Part shown: positions 18,246 to 58,762 of the stretch, one piece after another
How the letters are laid out: every line of letters starts with the position of its first letter
Numbering within the stretch: the first letter of the stretch is position 1
Origin: an uncultured Gammaproteobacteria bacterium
Lineage (GTDB): Bacteria; Patescibacteriota; Microgenomatia; UBA8517
Assembly (NCBI GenBank): GCA_964587425.1
Contig: CAZPLB010000003.1
Location: forward strand, 1 to 58,762
Direction of reading: 5' to 3'
Length of the DNA stretch: 58,762 nucleotides
Position numbers and translations under genes: made by a program
Notes under the pieces: generated by a model
What the model saw: the letters and a program-made list of their open reading frames with translations, nothing else
The model's database searches: none
Told to the model about the DNA's origin: nothing

Positions 18246-19406
18246 TTACTTCAAGTTAAGCGTATATAAATTAGAAACTACATCCTTAGCCCCAAGATTT
18301 GTAAGTATAAATATTCGAGCCAAGGACAAAGATGGGAACGCACTCATTGGAATATAGCTTCCAGCATATATTGTCTGCCTGTTTGTGTTGTCATAATCAC
18401 AAATCTGCACTTTATCTTTCTTTGGAAGAAGTAGATTCTTCGAGTTTGGATACCAATAAATTACTCCATCCGTCTCAGTAATCTCAAAATTCCTGTCCTC
18501 TTTAATATCATACACATAGAAAAGATCTTTCTTAATGTTTCTTGACTCAGTCTGTGTTGAGGAGCCAGGCAATTGTTTAACTACCTCACTGGGAAGTGTT
18601 GCATCTTTTGTTCCTTGATATAAAATTTTTGTTTCATCTGGAGAAAAAACAATATTTTTAGTATTGTTTGTAATGATCTGAGCAATCCTGTCATCAACTC
18701 TTGAAAGCAAAGATTGCACTCTTTTTTGTTCTACTGTGTTCCACTCTGTTTGGGTTTTTACTAGTGTTGGCTTTATATTTACCAGGTTTGCCTGAGCTGT
18801 AAACGTATCTGCCCTCAAAATAAATGCACCAGTTTTATTGGAAAGAAGAATATTTACCCCATCAGGAGACCACTGCCAATCAAAATCCTTGAGATCACCG
18901 TCAGTAATGCGAGTTGCAGGTCTACTGAATCCAAGAGGGAGATCCACAGTTTCTGCAATCCAGAGTCCAGCAGTCGTTGGATTGTCTTTTGTGAGAGGAA
19001 CTGCATAGGCTATTTTTGAATAACTCGGAGATATTTTAGGGTTCAAAGCTCCGTTTATAGTCAAAGGAGAAAGAGAAGAGGCAAGTGGAAAGAGAGCTGC
19101 ATCAATTTGGGTAACTATTTCCCTCTCTACTCGAATTTTCTTTGTCCAAGTCGAATACCCTGCCTTCTTGATTTCTACATTGTATTCGTGAGGGGACAGT
19201 GATAAGTTTGTATTAGTTGCAGCCTTCAGCTCTCCATCAACATAGATCTGAGCTCCAGTTGGATCAGAATTAACAACCATCAAGCCTCCATCCACAAGTT
19301 TATTCTGATTGAGTCTGAAGCCTTTAGCATAAAGGGCAAGTATTGTCCCAGCAGTCCCTACAATGACTAGTGTAAGTAAAAAAATGACAATTCTAAGTTT
19401 GGTCAT
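18246..19406 (-). CDS. PEGA-domain membrane-anchored protein with TolB-like propeller segments
   Basis: N-terminal TM; VVNSDPTGAQIYVDG..YNVEIKKAGY (PEGA); WSPDG and FSPDETKI repeats. Confidence 0.85.
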   Translation of the reverse strand: MTKLRIVIFLLTLVIVGTAGTILALYAKGFRLNQNKLVDGGLMVVNSDPTGAQIYVDGELKAATNTNLSLSPHEYNVEIKKAGYSTWTKKIRVEREIVTQIDAALFPLASSLSPLTINGALNPKISPSYSKIAYAVPLTKDNPTTAGLWIAETVDLPLGFSRPATRITDGDLKDFDWQWSPDGVNILLSNKTGAFILRADTFTAQANLVNIKPTLVKTQTEWNTVEQKRVQSLLSRVDDRIAQIITNNTKNIVFSPDETKILYQGTKDATLPSEVVKQLPGSSTQTESRNIKKDLFYVYDIKEDRNFEITETDGVIYWYPNSKNLLLPKKDKVQICDYDNTNRQTIYAGSYIPMSAFPSLSLARIFILTNLGAKDVVSNLYTLNLK

Positions 19407-30635: not shown

Positions 30636-31013
30636 TTACTTGAGCTCAACAGTTGCTCCAGCTGCTTTTAATTTCTCAGAAGCGCTTTTTGCATCATCTG
30701 CTTTTGCATCTTTCAAGATTACTGCAGGAACTGTATCAGTCATGTCTTTCGCTTCCTTCAACCCTAATTGTGGGTTAATCTCACGAAGTGCCTTAATGAC
30801 TGAAATTTTATTTGCTCCAGCATTGGTCATAACTACTGTCTGGACTCCACCTGCTGCCGGTGCTGCATCCGCTGGGGCTGCCCCTGCCGGTGCTGCGGCT
30901 TGTGCTGCCATAGGTGTAACTCCAAGCTTGTCTTGCAAAGCTTTGTTAAGTTCAGAAAGCTCCAATACTGTTAATCCTGCAATTTCGTCTACTAATTTTG
31001 ATATATCTGCCAT
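30636..31013 (-). CDS. rplL: 50S ribosomal protein bL12
   Basis: LTVLELSEL..KISVIKALRE..LGLKEAKD..AGATVELK. Confidence 0.97.
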   Translation of the reverse strand: MADISKLVDEIAGLTVLELSELNKALQDKLGVTPMAAQAAAPAGAAPADAAPAAGGVQTVVMTNAGANKISVIKALREINPQLGLKEAKDMTDTVPAVILKDAKADDAKSASEKLKAAGATVELK

Positions 31014-31565
31014 TTAAATCACCGCCTTTGCTGATAATATTCCAATCAACTCTTGCATTCCATATTGTAAGTTTGAAACTAAACCATAAAGAGGACCAGC
31101 AATGGATCCTACAGTTTGAGATACCAAAACTTCCTTTGTTGGAAGTTTGGAAATAGTAACTAACATTTCTTTGTCAGCAAATTTACCATCAACAAAACCA
31201 CCCTTAAAGTCTCCAGCCTCACTTGTTTCCAAAAACTTCCCAAAAGCCTGAATAGGGGAAACTGGATCTTCCTTACCAATAATTACTGCAGTTTGGCCAG
31301 AAAGTACAGAATCTTCAGTTAGTTCACTAGGGAATTTAGCCTCACCAATTGCAATCTTGAGTAGAGTATTTTTGGATACATACATTTTAGCCCCAGCCTC
31401 TTTGAGTTTCTTTTTGAGATCAATTTGGGCATCCATACCCATCTTTGAAAAATCAACCAAAGCCAAAGATTTAGCACCCTGAAGTTCTGAAAGTAAGCCT
31501 TTTACAACTGTTTCTTTAGCCTGAAAGGCCAAACTGTGATTGATTTGTCTGTTATTGCTTGTCAT
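31014..31565 (-). CDS. rplJ: 50S ribosomal protein uL10
   Basis: KETVV, VSKNTLLKIA, KLPTKEVL; upstream of rplL. Confidence 0.95.
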   Translation of the reverse strand: MTSNNRQINHSLAFQAKETVVKGLLSELQGAKSLALVDFSKMGMDAQIDLKKKLKEAGAKMYVSKNTLLKIAIGEAKFPSELTEDSVLSGQTAVIIGKEDPVSPIQAFGKFLETSEAGDFKGGFVDGKFADKEMLVTISKLPTKEVLVSQTVGSIAGPLYGLVSNLQYGMQELIGILSAKAVI

Positions 31566-31630: not shown

Positions 31631-32491
31631 CTACCCACGTTTCCTTTTCAAGCTTGGAAATCTTAACCCCCTCTTTTTGGGAGAGACCTCAGTTACTTCC
31701 TCTCCCGAACTCCCAGATAAAATCAGGAGAGCATTATCTGCCATGGATGACCTATTTTGATGTATAGTAAGCGATCTATTTTGAGCGTCAATTTTTTCCT
31801 GATCATTCTGGATCATCTTTTCTAAGATATTTTCCAGATCCTGCATCACTTCTTCTTCAGAGTTTGAAAAATGCAGCTTTATGACGGCCGATCCATAATC
31901 TCTTCTATATATGTCTATCTGACCATTCTGTCTATCTTTCTCTGAGGGCGAAAGATATACTCTCACATCATTAGTTGCATCGTAACTATGGTGTGTGGTA
32001 CTTGAAAAATACGTATTCAAAAGCTGTAAACCTTCAATTTGTTTATATAAATCATGATCGTCCGCCAAACCACTCTTGCCAATTGATGTTTCAAGTAAAG
32101 GGGAGTGTATTTTGATATTTCCATTTCCCTCAGGCATTAAATCTGCTCCATCAAATATCCAGCTTATATACCCCCATCCCGATCTGCTTGCAAATAAATA
32201 TCGAATAGTGATTTGTGCACCTTCAACTTCGATAAAAGGGTAATTTATTAAATCCAAATCTGTTTTACTTGATTTAGAACCTTCACTGAATTCATATATT
32301 ATCTTTTCATCTCGCTTCAATCCTAATTCCTCCAACCTTCGCATTACAAGTTGGTTTTTTGTAGCCTCTCTTTCTTTCTCTTGTGCTAAGTCACTTTGAA
32401 GAGTTTCTGAAACTTGTTTTGCAACGTTCTGTGAAGCTAAATAATTATTTAATCGAGAAAGATTACCATCATCCTCAATTTCTCTTTTCAT
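31631..32491 (-). CDS. Hypothetical protein inserted between rplA and rplJ
   Basis: 286-aa ORF abutting the rplA stop; helical N-terminus, basic tail KKRGLRFPSLKRKRG. Confidence 0.7.
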   Translation of the reverse strand: MKREIEDDGNLSRLNNYLASQNVAKQVSETLQSDLAQEKEREATKNQLVMRRLEELGLKRDEKIIYEFSEGSKSSKTDLDLINYPFIEVEGAQITIRYLFASRSGWGYISWIFDGADLMPEGNGNIKIHSPLLETSIGKSGLADDHDLYKQIEGLQLLNTYFSSTTHHSYDATNDVRVYLSPSEKDRQNGQIDIYRRDYGSAVIKLHFSNSEEEVMQDLENILEKMIQNDQEKIDAQNRSLTIHQNRSSMADNALLILSGSSGEEVTEVSPKKRGLRFPSLKRKRG

Positions 32492-33220
32492 TTAAATCTG
32501 AATTTTGACAGAAGGGCTCATTGTAGCCTTTATAAAAGCCCTAACCACTTGTTTTCTGTTTACTGCATCAAGTATTGTCTCTAAGTTTTTAACTAGCTCT
32601 TCATCTTTCTGGCTCACTTTTCCAAATGTCGTGTGCATGAGAGGTGCTGTTTTTTCGGTTTTTATAGTTACTGAGTTTGCAGAAAACTTCTTTGCATCAG
32701 CTTCACTTTTAATGAGTGTTCCATTCTTGGGATTTGGCATCATTCCTCTGGGTCCAAGAATCTTTGCAAATGGAACAAGTTTAGGCATCATCTCAGCTGT
32801 TGCCAAGAGTACATCAAAATCAACCTTTCCTGTTTTCAACTTCTCAATCGTTTCTTCATTTGCAACCTCAATCTTTTTAGATTTGCCCGTAAGATAGGGA
32901 AGAGCTACATTAACAGAAAGTCCTTGTTTTTTGACAATGAGATGGATTTCCATTGTTCCATCAAATTTTGAATATGAAGAATTTTTAACTAAGGTAATTG
33001 CCTCCTGCAAATTATAGCTTTTAGACCTGTCAATATTTGCCTTTACTTCTTGGTATTTCTTGCCTCGAACCTTAGGAACTGCATTTTTACTTCTTTTTGA
33101 GCTTGCAGAACTTTCCTCTTGTGCTCCGACAACTTCCGGTTCCATTTCAACTACTTTTACCTTCTGCCCTCCTTTGAGGCCAGCTACTTTTACTTTTTTC
33201 TCTTCTTGTTTTTTTGCCAT
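32492..33220 (-). CDS. rplA: 50S ribosomal protein uL1, atypical (N-terminal extension, shortened core)
   Basis: KFDGTMEIH, DFDVLLATAEMMP, LGPRGMMPNPKNGT, ATMSPSVKI. Confidence 0.93.
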   Translation of the reverse strand: MAKKQEEKKVKVAGLKGGQKVKVVEMEPEVVGAQEESSASSKRSKNAVPKVRGKKYQEVKANIDRSKSYNLQEAITLVKNSSYSKFDGTMEIHLIVKKQGLSVNVALPYLTGKSKKIEVANEETIEKLKTGKVDFDVLLATAEMMPKLVPFAKILGPRGMMPNPKNGTLIKSEADAKKFSANSVTIKTEKTAPLMHTTFGKVSQKDEELVKNLETILDAVNRKQVVRAFIKATMSPSVKIQI

Positions 33221-37123: not shown

Positions 37124-37306
37124 TTACCTTGAGATAACTGCTTTTAAGGCCCCTGCAAAGATGTAATCTAAAGCTCCTGTGTATGCCCCTATAGCGGCAG
37201 AGGCGAGAATTACTACACCGGTCAACTTGAGAACACGTCCTGCGCTCGGCCAAGTAACATTTCCAAGTTCCCGTTTAACTTCAATTAAATAGGTAATTGG
37301 ATTCAT
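37124..37306 (-). CDS. secE: Preprotein translocase SecE
   Basis: EVKRELGNVTWP plus TM; upstream of nusG. Confidence 0.93.
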   Translation of the reverse strand: MNPITYLIEVKRELGNVTWPSAGRVLKLTGVVILASAAIGAYTGALDYIFAGALKAVISR

Positions 37307-37385
37307 GTCATGAATTTTAACACATAATTTGACAGAATCAAAGCATGCCCAAAATCAAGAGAAGTAATGTTATCTAGAAAGAACC

Positions 37386-37580
37386 TTAGTAACCGCGCTT
37401 TTTTTCAAGCTCGCGCATATATTCAAGTCTATACTTCTTTTCCTTTCGCTTCTGAGACTTCTTTTTGTACCTATCGCGTTCACGATAGTCAATCAAAAGA
37501 CCAGAATCTATAACCTTTTTTCGAAAACGAGCAATGAGACGATCATCTGACTCTCCTTTTTGTTTTTTTACAACTACCAT
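37386..37580 (-). CDS. rpsU: 30S ribosomal protein bS21
   Basis: GESDDRLIARFRKKV..RERDRYKKKSQKRK. Confidence 0.88.
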   Translation of the reverse strand: MVVVKKQKGESDDRLIARFRKKVIDSGLLIDYRERDRYKKKSQKRKEKKYRLEYMRELEKKRGY

Positions 37581-37590
37581 TTGAAATAAA

Positions 37591-37617
37591 CACCTCCTTG
37601 TGGCCTATATTGTACCA
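37591..37617 (-). promoter_or_regulatory. Extended -10 promoter and strong Shine-Dalgarno of rpsU
   Basis: TGG-TACAAT (37617-37609), then AAGGAGGTG (37599-37591), 10 nt before ATG. Confidence 0.85.
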
Positions 37618-37623
37618 AAAAAG

Positions 37624-37881
37624 TCAAAGGTTTGATATAACTGAAGCTTCTAAGTTTGATATCCTCTTGTCATGCCTATCCATCCTGTCTTGTTGTGCAT
37701 CAAACTTTCTGTTCAAAGTATCCATCCCTTCCTCCAAATTTGTCAGTCTTTCTTCAACTCCTGTTAGTTTACCCTCAACCCCAGTTAATCTACCATCAAT
37801 TTTTTCAAGTTCTGGGAGAATCACTTCACGAAAGGCTTCGCCAAAAAGTTCAACGGTCTCCTCCTTTTGTTTTTTGTTCAT
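37624..37881 (-). CDS. Small heptad-repeat coiled-coil protein
   Basis: LTGVEGK-LTGVEER-LTNLEEG heptads. Confidence 0.7.
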   Translation of the reverse strand: MNKKQKEETVELFGEAFREVILPELEKIDGRLTGVEGKLTGVEERLTNLEEGMDTLNRKFDAQQDRMDRHDKRISNLEASVISNL

Positions 37882-58077: not shown

Positions 58078-58762
58078 ATGAAGGAAAATACAAAAATAGC
58101 CATCTTCAAAGGAAAGGAAATCAGAAAAACAATCCATAAAAACGAATGGTGGTTTTCTATTACAGATGTTGTTGGGGTCTTAACAAATAGCAACGCACCC
58201 AGAAGATATTGGAGTGATTTAAAAATTAAGATCAAACAGGAAGGTTACACTGAGTTGTACGAAAAAATCGTACAACTAAAGCTACTCTCATCAGATGGAA
58301 AAATGTATGAGACGGATTGTGCCAATACAGAAACTTTGTTCCGTATTATTCAATCTATCCCTTCCCCCAAAGCAGAGCCATTCAAAAGATGGTTAGCAAA
58401 GGTTGGATATGAACGAGTGCGAGAAATTGAGGATCCAGAGCTCGCCACCAAAAGAACTAGAGCCCTGTATAAAGCCAAGGGATATGGTGACAATTGGATA
58501 GAAAAAAGAATGAGAGGCATTGCTATTCGCGAGGAGTTAACCGACGAATGGAAGAAGCGAAATGTCGGAATGGAAAGAGAATATGCAATTCTAACTGCAG
58601 AAATTTCCAAAGCAACTTTTGGCATGACTCCAAGTCAATACAAGAAGTTTAAGAACCTGGAAAGAGAAAATCTAAGAGATCACATGAATGACCTTGAGTT
58701 AATATTTTCAATGCTTGGCGAAGCTTCAACCACAGAAATTGCAAAACATAAAAATACACAAG
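58078..58762 (+). CDS. Bro-N domain DNA-binding protein (phage antirepressor-like), runs off the window end
   Basis: Hand translation MKENTKIAIFKGKEIR..WWFSITDVV..RIIQSIPSPKAEPFKRWLA..NLRDHM; absent from ORF track because no stop is reached. Confidence 0.9.
   Translation, partial: MKENTKIAIFKGKEIRKTIHKNEWWFSITDVVGVLTNSNAPRRYWSDLKIKIKQEGYTELYEKIVQLKLLSSDGKMYETDCANTETLFRIIQSIPSPKAEPFKRWLAKVGYERVREIEDPELATKRTRALYKAKGYGDNWIEKRMRGIAIREELTDEWKKRNVGMEREYAILTAEISKATFGMTPSQYKKFKNLERENLRDHMNDLELIFSMLGEASTTEIAKHKNTQ

What the first reader, a model, noticed from the sequence alone, without database searches (positions are those of the whole stretch)
37578..37617. rpsU carries a 9-nt Shine-Dalgarno in an SD-poor genome: candidate bS21 autoregulation
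Seen: AAGGAGGTG 10 nt before the rpsU ATG in a ~22-nt leader. Most other starts in the window are A/T-rich or leaderless. The only comparable site found is AAAGGCGGTGAT before rplL (31029-31018). Established: in Bacteroidia, bS21 helps sequester the anti-SD, and rpsU has a strong SD so that bS21-deficient ribosomes upregulate it. Inference: the same feedback logic may operate, possibly convergently, in this CPR lineage.
Basis: partly seen in the sequence, partly recalled or inferred. Interest (0 to 1): 0.72.

Follow-up and report, generated by a model that had tools for sequence, protein, structure and literature searches.

The report
Conserved extended Shine-Dalgarno before rpsU
The gene for ribosomal protein bS21 in this Woesebacteria-like (CPR) genome has a real, unusually long ribosome-binding sequence that most related species keep although nearly all other genes lack one, which hints, without proving it, that bS21 production is self-regulated as in Bacteroidetes.

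Summary
AAGGAGGTG lies at 37599-37591 (-), 10 nt before the rpsU ATG at 37580. It occurs once in the window and gives the strongest anti-SD match of 56 gene starts (-15.1 kcal/mol; median -1.8). The genome is SD-poor: a third of genes have a -10 box 5-9 nt before the start codon, as leaderless mRNAs do.

The element is conserved. In 81 Woesebacteria-type species, 75 carry a 13-nt motif, GRAAGGRGGCGAU, upstream of rpsU. Neighbouring secE, nusG, rplK, rplA, rplJ and rnhB almost never have an SD.

rpsU is not unique. rplL has an equally conserved SD (GGRGGTGA), and about 2% of other genes exceed background. The anti-SD is therefore probably not globally silenced as in Flavobacterium.

No 16S, bS18 or bS6 sequence could be reached, so the sequestration pocket is untested. 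bS21 has an aromatic residue or His at the position aligned with Flavobacterium Tyr54.

Most relatives have C opposite 16S A1534, an apparent selected mismatch that remains unexplained. Many also have upstream ORFs crossing the SD.

Verdict: a real, selected SD. Bacteroidota-like feedback is plausible but unproven (about 0.45). No paper in the searched library reports this for CPR.

The parts
37609..37617 (-). Extended -10 promoter TGGTACAAT of rpsU (no usable -35). Predicted transcription start about 37601-37605.
   Evidence: Read from the sequence. The same TGnTAnAAT element precedes rpsU in most relatives. The consensus scan that needs a -35 did not list it. No TSS data.
37581..37604 (-). 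Predicted short 5' leader of rpsU mRNA (about 21-24 nt), unstructured.
   Evidence: Inferred from the position of the -10 box. Folding of 37603..37500 gives z = +0.94 against shuffles, so no structure hides the SD. No Rfam family matches.
37591..37599 (-). Shine-Dalgarno AAGGAGGTG: 9 contiguous pairs with the canonical 16S tail 5'-CACCUCCUU-3' (positions 1533-1541).
   Evidence: Conserved as GGAGGTGT in the window's own clade (L001, L002, L090-L094) and as GRAAGGRGGCGAU in most other Woesebacteria.
37581..37590 (-). 10-nt A/U-rich spacer TTTATTTCAA between SD and ATG (12 nt after the GGAGG core).
   Evidence: A long spacing after the core is also the rule in relatives: 8-9 nt after the position opposite A1534.
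37386..37580 (-). rpsU coding sequence (bS21, 64 aa, stop included).
   Evidence: 174 homologues, the named ones from Candidatus Woesebacteria.
31018..31029 (-). Comparator: SD-like AAAGGCGGTGAT before rplL, inside the 3' end of rplJ (rplJ stop TAA abuts the rplL ATG).
   Evidence: rplL carries GGRGGTGA in about 80% or more of relatives.
30636..31013 (-). rplL (bL12) coding sequence. The only other gene in the window with a strong anti-SD match.
   Evidence: Pfam PF00542 and PF16320. Energy -14.9.
37624..37881 (-). Upstream 85-aa coiled-coil ORF. Its stop lies 43 nt before the rpsU ATG. It has its own leaderless-type promoter, and read-through into rpsU cannot be excluded.
   Evidence: weak DUF7310/XhlA matches below cut-off. 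No terminator-like site between it and rpsU.
37124..37341 (-). Downstream secE with its own leaderless-type promoter (TTGATT-16-TAAAAT ends 7 nt before the ATG at 37306). This indicates that rpsU is a separate unit.

Best explanation
The element is a genuine, selected, extended Shine-Dalgarno site. It drives 30S-type initiation on a short, leadered, essentially monocistronic rpsU mRNA. The lineage is Woesebacteria-like Microgenomatia, where most mRNAs are leaderless or SD-less.

The most likely reason rpsU keeps it is translational feedback on bS21. bS21 sits beside the 16S 3' tail. Ribosomes or 30S subunits lacking bS21 have a freer anti-SD, so they initiate relatively better on the long SD of rpsU mRNA. 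Replete ribosomes do so less well, and bS21 output falls as ribosomes fill up. This is the logic shown experimentally in Flavobacterium johnsoniae.

Shown here:
- The SD exists.
- It is exceptional in its genome.
- It is conserved over the class.
- Its conserved length (13 nt in most relatives) matches the 16S tail.

Inferred:
- That the 16S tail is canonical.
- That bS21 status changes anti-SD availability or helix accommodation in this lineage.
- That this produces negative feedback.

The feedback need not involve global anti-SD silencing. A steric conflict between a long SD-anti-SD helix and the bS21 C-terminal helix would be enough. So would a relative advantage of SD-led mRNA when SD-less initiation is impaired.
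For: 1. Exceptional strength in its genome: rank 1 of 56 starts, -15.1 against a median of -1.8. The 9-mer is unique in the window.
2. Conservation: 75 of 81 species-level relatives have [GA][GA]GG[CT]G within 70 nt upstream of rpsU, 62 of them proximal (position 0, opposite A1534, 7-19 nt before the ATG). Positions the anchor did not force are also conserved: G-9 76%, A-7 83%, A-6 81%, G-5 93%, A+2 96%.
3. Purine alternation (A/G) falls at the two positions opposite U1537 and U1542, where wobble is tolerated.
4. Specificity: rpsU reaches -10 or lower in 75% of loci. The figures are secE 0%, nusG 1%, rplK 1%, rplA 7%, rplJ 0%, rnhB 5%, and 4.4% for 1360 other genes against a null of 2.2%. Ribosomal-protein-level expression does not in itself require an SD here.
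5. Precedent: in Bacteroidota, rpsU is the gene that keeps a 9-13 bp SD in an SD-poor background. Ribosomes lacking bS21 translate it better, and the 13-bp helix excludes bS21 (PMC7797042, PMC9976891, PMC13000453, PMC13000457).
6. bS21 here is 64 aa, as in F. johnsoniae. Through gap-free alignments via 9i5v_9, it has Tyr at the position of F. johnsoniae Tyr54. Relatives have H 52, F 21, Y 8.
7. Relatives show regulated-looking leaders: 36 or more of 85 have upstream ORFs that run over the SD and the rpsU start, and about 10 have a hairpin with compensatory changes.
Against: 1. rplL has an equally strong and equally conserved SD. bL12 must be made continuously by mature ribosomes. Replete ribosomes therefore probably do read SDs, unlike in Flavobacterium.
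2. Other genes with very strong SDs exist in relatives: 1.2% at -14 or lower against a null of 0.12%.
3. rpsU is the strongest gene in its locus in only 39 of 81 loci. McNutt's 'clear winner' criterion is often not met.
4. No 16S, bS18 or bS6 sequence was available. The pocket is untested.
5. The Tyr54 equivalence rests on weak alignments. phmmer to 7jil_z gives E = 0.079 and direct BLASTP is not significant. Most relatives have His, as E. coli does two residues further along.
6. Most relatives have C opposite A1534, a mismatch the model does not predict.
7. From my own knowledge of E. coli (van Duin and Wijnands 1981; Backendorf 1981), S21 promotes SD-dependent initiation. That would give the opposite sign of feedback.
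8. No expression data exist.
Confidence: 0.45

Rival explanations
1. Plain strong ribosome-binding site with no feedback. In a lineage whose default is leaderless or SD-less initiation, a few genes need a high initiation rate from a start codon that is not at the 5' end. These use a strong SD read by ordinary, replete ribosomes. rpsU, a very short ORF on its own small mRNA, is one of them. rplL, needed in several copies per ribosome and internal to the rplJL operon, is another.
For: rplL shares the feature at the same frequency and the same spacing. Other strong SDs occur on small or secreted-protein genes in relatives. The window leader is unstructured with no extra elements. No known regulatory RNA family matches. 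The anti-SD motif is retained in CPR outside a Parcubacteria subgroup (PMC9297842).
Against: rplK, rplA, rplJ, secE and nusG reach comparable demand without an SD. High expression alone therefore does not explain why rpsU has one, and rpsU has no stoichiometric reason like rplL. The rpsU motif is longer (13 against 8-10 conserved positions) and has its own conserved C. Many relatives add uORFs or hairpins to this leader. The same gene is the SD exception in Bacteroidota, where feedback is proven.
Confidence: 0.35
2. Autogenous control by another route. One version: free bS21, or another ribosomal protein, binds the purine-rich leader directly or alters mRNA stability, as reported for the rpsU2 5' UTR in Francisella. 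A second version applies to relatives: competition between a leaderless or GGTGAT-led upstream ORF and the SD-led rpsU start sets the output. In either case the SD is only the platform on which regulation acts.
For: There is a rpsU-specific conserved C in GGRGG-C-GAU, which rplL and other SDs do not have. Upstream ORFs cross the SD and start codon in 36 or more of 85 leaders. A hairpin with compensatory changes is present in about 10. Francisella shows leader-dependent bS21 autoregulation (PMC13374519).
Against: The window's own leader has no uORF and no structure, and its clade has T rather than C. No protein-binding site can be inferred from sequence. The conserved positions are explained position by position by complementarity to the 16S tail, except the C.
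Confidence: 0.12
3. Chance occurrence, or a mis-called start. On this view the purine run is not a functional initiation signal.
For: With one mismatch allowed, AAGGAGGTG-like 9-mers are not enriched in the window: 17 against 12 +/- 3 expected. Ten sites of -14.5 or lower exist in the window, eight of them inside genes.
Against: The exact 9-mer is unique and sits at the right distance from the ATG of a Pfam-confirmed gene, whose N-terminus aligns from Met1 with 174 homologues. The element is present in 75 of 81 relatives, against about 5% expected per 65-nt leader from base composition (own estimate).
Confidence: 0.01

Closest known systems
bS21 (rpsU) translational autoregulation through an extended SD in Bacteroidota (Flavobacterium johnsoniae; Jha 2021 PMC7797042, McNutt 2023 PMC9976891, Naeem 2026 PMC13000453, Arpin 2026 PMC13000457)
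   Same: SD-poor genome. rpsU carries an unusually long SD (9-13 pairs, below -13 kcal/mol) with a long spacer after the GGAGG core. It is conserved across a whole class. bS21 is short (64 aa), with an aromatic residue or His at aligned position 54.
   Different: A different phylum (CPR/Patescibacteria). rplL and about 2% of other genes also use strong SDs, so ribosomes are probably not 'blind' to SDs. Most genes are leaderless-type rather than A-rich leadered. Most relatives have a C opposite A1534, and many have uORFs over the SD. The bS18/bS6 pocket, the 16S tail and function are all untested.
Autogenous regulation of rpsU2 (bS21-2) through its 5' UTR in Francisella tularensis (PMC13374519)
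   Same: A bS21 gene whose leader is the target of bS21-dependent control.
   Different: In Francisella the effect is on mRNA abundance and stability and involves paralogues. No exceptional SD in an SD-poor background is described. Only one rpsU was seen in the window and in each locus examined; the complete genomes were not surveyed.
Factor-sensing initiation signals: infC (IF3) AUU start codon and the prfB (RF2) frameshift site with an internal SD (textbook; prfB in Flavobacterium PMC10798248)
   Same: The gene for a translation component carries an atypical translation signal. Its efficiency is inversely related to the activity of its own product.
   Different: Different signals and components. 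This is an analogy of logic only.
Leaderless-rich bacterial genomes (Actinobacteria, Deinococcus; PMC3160421, PMC4007540, GeneMarkS-2 PMC6028130)
   Same: [quoted passage not shown] SDs are confined to a minority of leadered or internal genes.
   Different: According to PMC9976891, most of those phyla lack bS21, so the rpsU question does not arise there.

Membership tests
Bacteroidota-type bS21 autoregulation (SD of rpsU read by bS21-deficient ribosomes) | Genome-wide scarcity of SD sequences | tested here: met
   Window: median -1.8 kcal/mol at 56 starts against -3.0 at random positions; 2 of 56 at -10 or lower. 1360 genes in 81 related loci: 4.4% at -10 or lower against a null of 2.2%. This covers 58.8 kb plus about 1.4 Mb of relatives, not whole genomes.
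Bacteroidota-type bS21 autoregulation (SD of rpsU read by bS21-deficient ribosomes) | 16S rRNA nevertheless keeps the canonical anti-SD (CCUCC) | tested here: inconclusive
   No 16S in the window or in any Woesebacteria locus. Indirect support: rplL and other SDs read GGRGGTGA. The G1534 variant is nearly absent from metagenome 16S ends. PMC9297842 reports the anti-SD motif retained in CPR outside a Parcubacteria subgroup.
Bacteroidota-type bS21 autoregulation (SD of rpsU read by bS21-deficient ribosomes) | rpsU carries an extended SD (9-13 consecutive pairs, dG below -13 kcal/mol) | tested here: met
   Window: 9 consecutive pairs, -15.1 kcal/mol by duplexfold against a 13-nt tail. Relatives: 9 pairs, one C.A mismatch, then 3 pairs. 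The energy method differs from free_scan, which the papers used.
Bacteroidota-type bS21 autoregulation (SD of rpsU read by bS21-deficient ribosomes) | rpsU is the clear winner among ribosomal-protein genes (McNutt 2023 criterion) | tested here: not met
   rplL ties with it in the window (-14.9 against -15.1). rplL is stronger in 26 of 81 loci and another gene in 16; rpsU wins in 39. Only rplK, rplA, rplJ, rplL and rpsU could be compared.
Bacteroidota-type bS21 autoregulation (SD of rpsU read by bS21-deficient ribosomes) | The rpsU SD is conserved across the lineage | tested here: met
   75 of 81 species-level loci have the motif, and 61 of 81 reach -10 or lower within -24..-3. Six further close relatives also have it.
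Bacteroidota-type bS21 autoregulation (SD of rpsU read by bS21-deficient ribosomes) | bS21 C-terminal helix with Tyr54 that stacks on A1534 | tested here: inconclusive
   The window has Tyr54 by transitive gap-free alignment (window to 9i5v_9 at E = 1.2e-4; 9i5v_9 to 7jil_z). Relatives have H 52, F 21, Y 8. Direct BLASTP to F. johnsoniae bS21 is not significant.
Bacteroidota-type bS21 autoregulation (SD of rpsU read by bS21-deficient ribosomes) | Platform pocket residues of bS18 (K37, F50, N56) and the bS6 C-terminal helix (W100, R103, K107) | not testable with these tools
   No bS18 or bS6 gene in the window or the 80 loci.
Bacteroidota-type bS21 autoregulation (SD of rpsU read by bS21-deficient ribosomes) | SD and anti-SD covary (ASD2 lineages) | tested here: inconclusive
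   The C/T difference in rpsU SDs is not mirrored in rplL or other SDs of the same genomes. G1534 16S ends are very rare. The variation therefore looks mRNA-only, not covariation, but no 16S was read directly.
Bacteroidota-type bS21 autoregulation (SD of rpsU read by bS21-deficient ribosomes) | Ribosomes lacking bS21 translate rpsU faster | not testable with these tools
   An experimental property. No cultured Woesebacteria, and no RNA runs hold this sequence.
Known ribosomal-protein leader RNAs (Rfam) | Match to a curated covariance model in the leader | tested here: not met
   No family at gathering score in the window. Nothing credible at E <= 5 in the rpsU region of the window or of L013.

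The most novel reading that the evidence does not exclude
Woesebacteria have independently evolved a sensor of ribosome composition. bS21 shifts ribosomes between leaderless/SD-less and SD-led initiation, and the rpsU leader reads that state.

In its full form in relatives, the transcript starts with a leaderless or GGTGAT-led upstream ORF. Translation of that ORF runs over a 13-nt SD carrying a selected C.A mismatch at 16S A1534, the base that stacks on bS21 in Flavobacterium. The balance between the two initiation modes then sets bS21 synthesis.

The window shows the minimal form: promoter, SD, rpsU. On this reading, rpsU-SD feedback would be a recurrent solution in SD-poor bacteria (Bacteroidia, Chlorobia, CPR).
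Probability: 0.2. Interest if true: 0.8.

Novelty: new variant of a known kind. Interest (0 to 1): 0.6.

Why it matters
bS21 autoregulation by specialised, bS21-lacking ribosomes is so far documented only in Bacteroidota.

A second, phylogenetically distant lineage now shows the same pattern. It is SD-poor, and rpsU keeps a long, conserved SD. That would argue for a general consequence of bS21 sitting next to the anti-SD, rather than a Bacteroidia peculiarity.

It would also give a concrete handle on translation control in CPR bacteria, whose ribosomes are reduced and whose gene regulation is almost unknown.

The comparative data yield testable sequence variants:
- C against U opposite A1534.
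- Leaders with and without uORFs.
- rplL as an internal control.

If the feedback is absent, the result still documents that this CPR class is largely leaderless or SD-less and reserves SDs for a handful of genes.

Tried and rejected
1. Covariation hypothesis. I asked whether Woesebacteria 16S have G1534, which would make GGAGGCGAU a perfect 13-bp match. Rejected as the general explanation. rplL uses T in 37 of 40 cases. Other SDs read TGA 21 times against CGA 2. The GGTGAT elements before uORFs also use T. A scan of all metagenome contigs for a 16S 3' end with GGATCGCCTCC found only 7 stretches, of mixed origin. Caveat: the pattern also required conserved helix-45 positions.

2. Looking for the organism's 16S. 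None in the window or in 80 related loci. Attempts to extend the window's contig returned only short Logan contigs of 7.3 and 4.9 kb.

3. Known RNA families in the leader: none.

4. A structure hiding the SD in the window leader: none, z = +0.94.

5. RNA-seq to map the 5' end: only soil DNA metagenomes hold the sequence.

6. Phage-encoded relatives of this bS21: none in viral contigs.

7. bS18 and bS6 near rpsU: absent.

8. Link between bS21 residue 54 and the C/T variant of the SD: no pattern in the cross-tabulation.

9. uORF coding as the cause of the conserved C (Ala codon GCG in the K-G/E-A frame). Rejected as the sole cause, because the C is equally conserved in leaders without any uATG.

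10. A wider survey of Patescibacteria was not possible.

Full report
**1. What is in the window**

rpsU is the minus-strand ORF 37580..37386 (64 aa). It matches Pfam Ribosomal_S21 above the curated cut-off. It has 174 homologues, and the named ones come from Candidatus Woesebacteria MAGs.

Read on the coding strand, the upstream region is TGGTACAAT-ATAGGCCAC-AAGGAGGTG-TTTATTTCAA-ATG:
- An extended -10 box lies at 37617..37609.
- The 9-nt Shine-Dalgarno (SD) lies at 37599..37591.
- A 10-nt A/U spacer follows.

The predicted leader is about 21-24 nt. It is not more structured than shuffled sequence (z = +0.94).

The upstream 85-aa coiled-coil ORF ends 43 nt before the ATG, with no terminator-like site in between. 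The downstream secE has its own promoter ending 7 nt before its ATG. Neighbouring genes are RNase HII (divergent), then secE, nusG, rplK, rplA, an unknown 286-aa ORF, rplJ and rplL.

**2. Is it more than chance?**

The exact 9-mer occurs once on both strands. About 0.28 occurrences are expected.

I called genes with a self-trained 3-periodic Markov model. I then scored -24..-3 of each start against the 16S tail GAUCACCUCCUUU.
- rpsU is first of 56 (-15.1 kcal/mol), rplL second (-14.9), and the next gene reaches -8.6.
- The median gene start (-1.8) is weaker than a random position (-3.0).
- With the 8-nt core anti-SD, rpsU (-12.2) stands alone.

The genome is therefore SD-poor. Twenty of 59 genes have TAnAAT, usually TGnTAnAAT, ending 5-9 nt before the start codon. 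That is the geometry of leaderless mRNAs. Operon-internal starts are A-rich or overlap the preceding stop.

**3. Conservation**

A scan of one genome per GTDB species returned 80 loci, all Woesebacteria, Microgenomates or 'Patescibacteria group' MAGs with 55-85% bS21 identity.
- In 75 of 81 leaders, window included, a purine motif lies upstream of rpsU.
- In 62 it is proximal, with the position opposite A1534 7-19 nt before the ATG.
- In 13 it is 22-55 nt upstream.

Aligned on the motif, the consensus is G-R-A-A-G-G-R-G-G-C-G-A-U. Positions not forced by my anchor are 76-96% conserved, while the flanks are about 40%. This is the complement of a canonical tail, 16S 1531-1543. The two R positions lie opposite U1537 and U1542, where A-U and G.U both pair.

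Six further close relatives of the window's clade carry GGAGGTGT or GGGGGTGT.

Across the loci, the fraction of each gene reaching -10 or lower is:
- rpsU 75%, rplL 80%
- secE 0%, nusG 1%, rplK 1%, rplA 7%, rplJ 0%, rnhB 5%

For 1360 other genes it is 4.4%, against 2.2% at random positions.

**4. rpsU is not alone**

rplL carries GGRGGTGA at the same spacing in nearly all relatives. The weak cases are starts I mis-called inside the gene.

rpsU is the strongest start in its locus in 39 of 81 cases, rplL in 26 and another gene in 16. A few small or secreted-protein genes in relatives have very strong SDs. At -14 or lower they make up 1.2% of other genes, against 0.12% expected.

From general knowledge, bL12 is the only multi-copy ribosomal protein and must be made by mature ribosomes. 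Its SD therefore argues that replete ribosomes of this lineage do read SDs. [quoted passage not shown]

**5. The 16S tail**

No 16S was reachable. Indirect evidence supports a canonical ...UCACCUCC... tail:
- rplL uses T opposite position 1534 in 37 of 40 cases.
- Other SDs read TGA 21 times against CGA 2.
- The GGTGAT elements before the rpsU uORFs also use T.
- A scan of all metagenome contigs for a 16S end with G1534 gave only 7 stretches of mixed origin.
- Tsurumaki et al. report the anti-SD motif retained in CPR outside a Parcubacteria subgroup (PMC9297842).

The C found in 65 of 75 rpsU motifs is thus an rpsU-specific, apparently selected C.A mismatch. I cannot explain it. In F. johnsoniae, A1534 is the base that stacks on bS21 Tyr54 (PMC9976891, PMC13000457). 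The window's own clade has T and 9 uninterrupted pairs.

**6. The protein**

The window's bS21 is 64 aa, as is F. johnsoniae bS21.

phmmer aligns it gap-free over 1-59 with PDB chain 9i5v_9 (E = 1.2e-4). That chain aligns gap-free with F. johnsoniae 7jil_z. This places the window's Tyr54 on F. johnsoniae Tyr54.

In the 81 relatives, position 54 is His 52, Phe 21, Tyr 8, and Tyr50 is invariant.

The direct alignment to 7jil_z is weak (E = 0.079), and BLASTP is not significant. A gammaproteobacterial bS21 in PDB (9hig_U) has His where phmmer aligns the window's Tyr54, two residues further along that chain. From memory, E. coli bS21 also has His56 there. This point is therefore suggestive only. 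bS18 and bS6 are not in the window or the loci.

**7. Comparison with what is known**

Work on F. johnsoniae has shown the following (PMC7797042, PMC9976891, PMC13000453, PMC13000457):
- The anti-SD is sequestered by bS21, bS18 and bS6.
- rpsU keeps a 9-13 bp SD.
- Ribosomes lacking bS21 translate rpsU better.
- The 13-bp SD-anti-SD helix sterically excludes bS21.
- Ablating the anti-SD cripples growth mainly through rpsU.

The published survey used complete RefSeq genomes and reports the pattern only for Bacteroidia and Chlorobia. No paper in the searchable library links bS21 regulation with CPR.

The window meets three criteria: SD-poor genome, extended rpsU SD, and conservation across the lineage. 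It fails the 'clear winner' criterion because of rplL. The remaining criteria could not be tested.

**8. Mechanism**

I consider bS21-dependent feedback through the long SD the most likely reason for its retention (0.45). It could work by steric competition between the long helix and bS21. It could also work by a relative advantage of SD-led initiation when bS21-dependent SD-less initiation is impaired. Global anti-SD silencing is unlikely.

The main rival (0.35) is an unregulated strong ribosome-binding site on a leadered mRNA. A further rival (0.12) is another autogenous route, through direct binding, mRNA stability as in Francisella (PMC13374519), or uORF competition.

From memory, E. coli S21 promotes SD-dependent initiation, which would invert the sign of the feedback. 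That is a real uncertainty.

**9. Leaders of relatives (outside the finding's coordinates)**

Of 85 distinct leaders, 22 are simple like the window's. At least 36 have an upstream ORF that runs through the SD and over the rpsU ATG:
- 18 are preceded by GGTGAT.
- 12 have the uATG 5-9 nt after the -10 box, a leaderless-type geometry.

In about 20 of them the reading frame across the SD is the same (K/R-G/E-A). About 10 leaders have the SD far upstream, followed by a uATG and a 4-bp hairpin that keeps pairing through compensatory changes.

These features suggest that the rpsU leader is a regulated element in this class. I did not test them further.

**10. Limits**

- Gene calls and start sites are my own heuristic.
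- Energies are from ViennaRNA duplexfold, not the free_scan method of the papers.
- The related loci are centred on rpsU and so are not a random sample of each genome.
- The taxon sample is Woesebacteria-type only.
- No transcript or protein data exist.

Noticed in passing
L001-L080, L090-L095: the 130 nt upstream of rpsU (for example L013 9940-10000, L023 9958-10000): At least 36 of 85 distinct rpsU leaders in relatives carry an upstream ORF. It runs through the SD and over the rpsU ATG, mostly in the +1 frame, and stops 60-116 nt inside rpsU. Eighteen are preceded by GGTGAT, and 12 have the uATG 5-9 nt after the -10 box (leaderless-type). In about 20 the frame across the SD is the same (K/R-G/E-A). 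The window itself has no uATG.
   Followed up: partly
L012, L021, L038, L045, L048, L057, L059, L066, L078: between the SD and the rpsU ATG: In a subset of relatives the SD lies 30-55 nt upstream. It is followed by a uATG and a small hairpin whose 4-bp stem keeps pairing through compensatory changes (CCGC/GCGG, CAGC/GCUG, CCAC/GUGG). Seven of these sequences were aligned, and the stem was 100% paired in all seven.
   Followed up: partly
L003-L080 rpsU leaders. Window equivalent 37592 (T).: The rpsU SD of most Woesebacteria has C opposite 16S A1534 (65 of 75). rplL, other SD genes and the uORF GGTGAT elements have T. This looks like a selected mismatch inside a 13-nt complement, and it is unexplained.
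   Followed up: partly
window, whole; examples at 19406 (-), 19461 (+), 29075 (+), 52345 (-), 54839 (-), 58030 (-): About a third of genes (20 of 59) have TGnTAnAAT ending 5-9 nt before the start codon. This implies that leaderless mRNAs are the main class for operon-first genes in this CPR genome.
   Followed up: partly
window 3607-5181 (+): A 524-aa cytochrome P450 (PF00067, precomputed hit). This is an unusual gene for a CPR genome with reduced metabolism.
   Followed up: no
window 31631-32491 (-): A 286-aa ORF without any Pfam match sits between rplA and rplJ, inside the otherwise conserved rplKAJL cluster. Only one relative (L002) has a detectable homologue.
   Followed up: no
window 32492-33220 (-): uL1 is 242 aa, but the Pfam L1 match covers only residues 124-236. 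This is an N-terminal extension with internal loss, as described for Microgenomates in PMC9297842.
   Followed up: no
window 31014-31029 (-): The window's rplL SD (AAAGGCGGTGAT) has C opposite U1537, where relatives have A or G. Several relatives show the same AAAGG-N-GGTGA form. The rplJ stop codon directly abuts the rplL ATG.
   Followed up: partly
L082 336-1163 (window about 58078-58761, +): A Bro-N domain protein (PF02498) lies at the right edge of the window. It may mark a mobile or prophage-derived segment.
   Followed up: no
L087 1190-1227 (Ga0114944_1072935): One of the seven metagenome 16S 3' ends with G1534 looks CPR-like: a divergent, insertion-bearing 3' domain and an AT-rich spacer. 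A minority of CPR may therefore really have GAUCGCCUCC.
   Followed up: no
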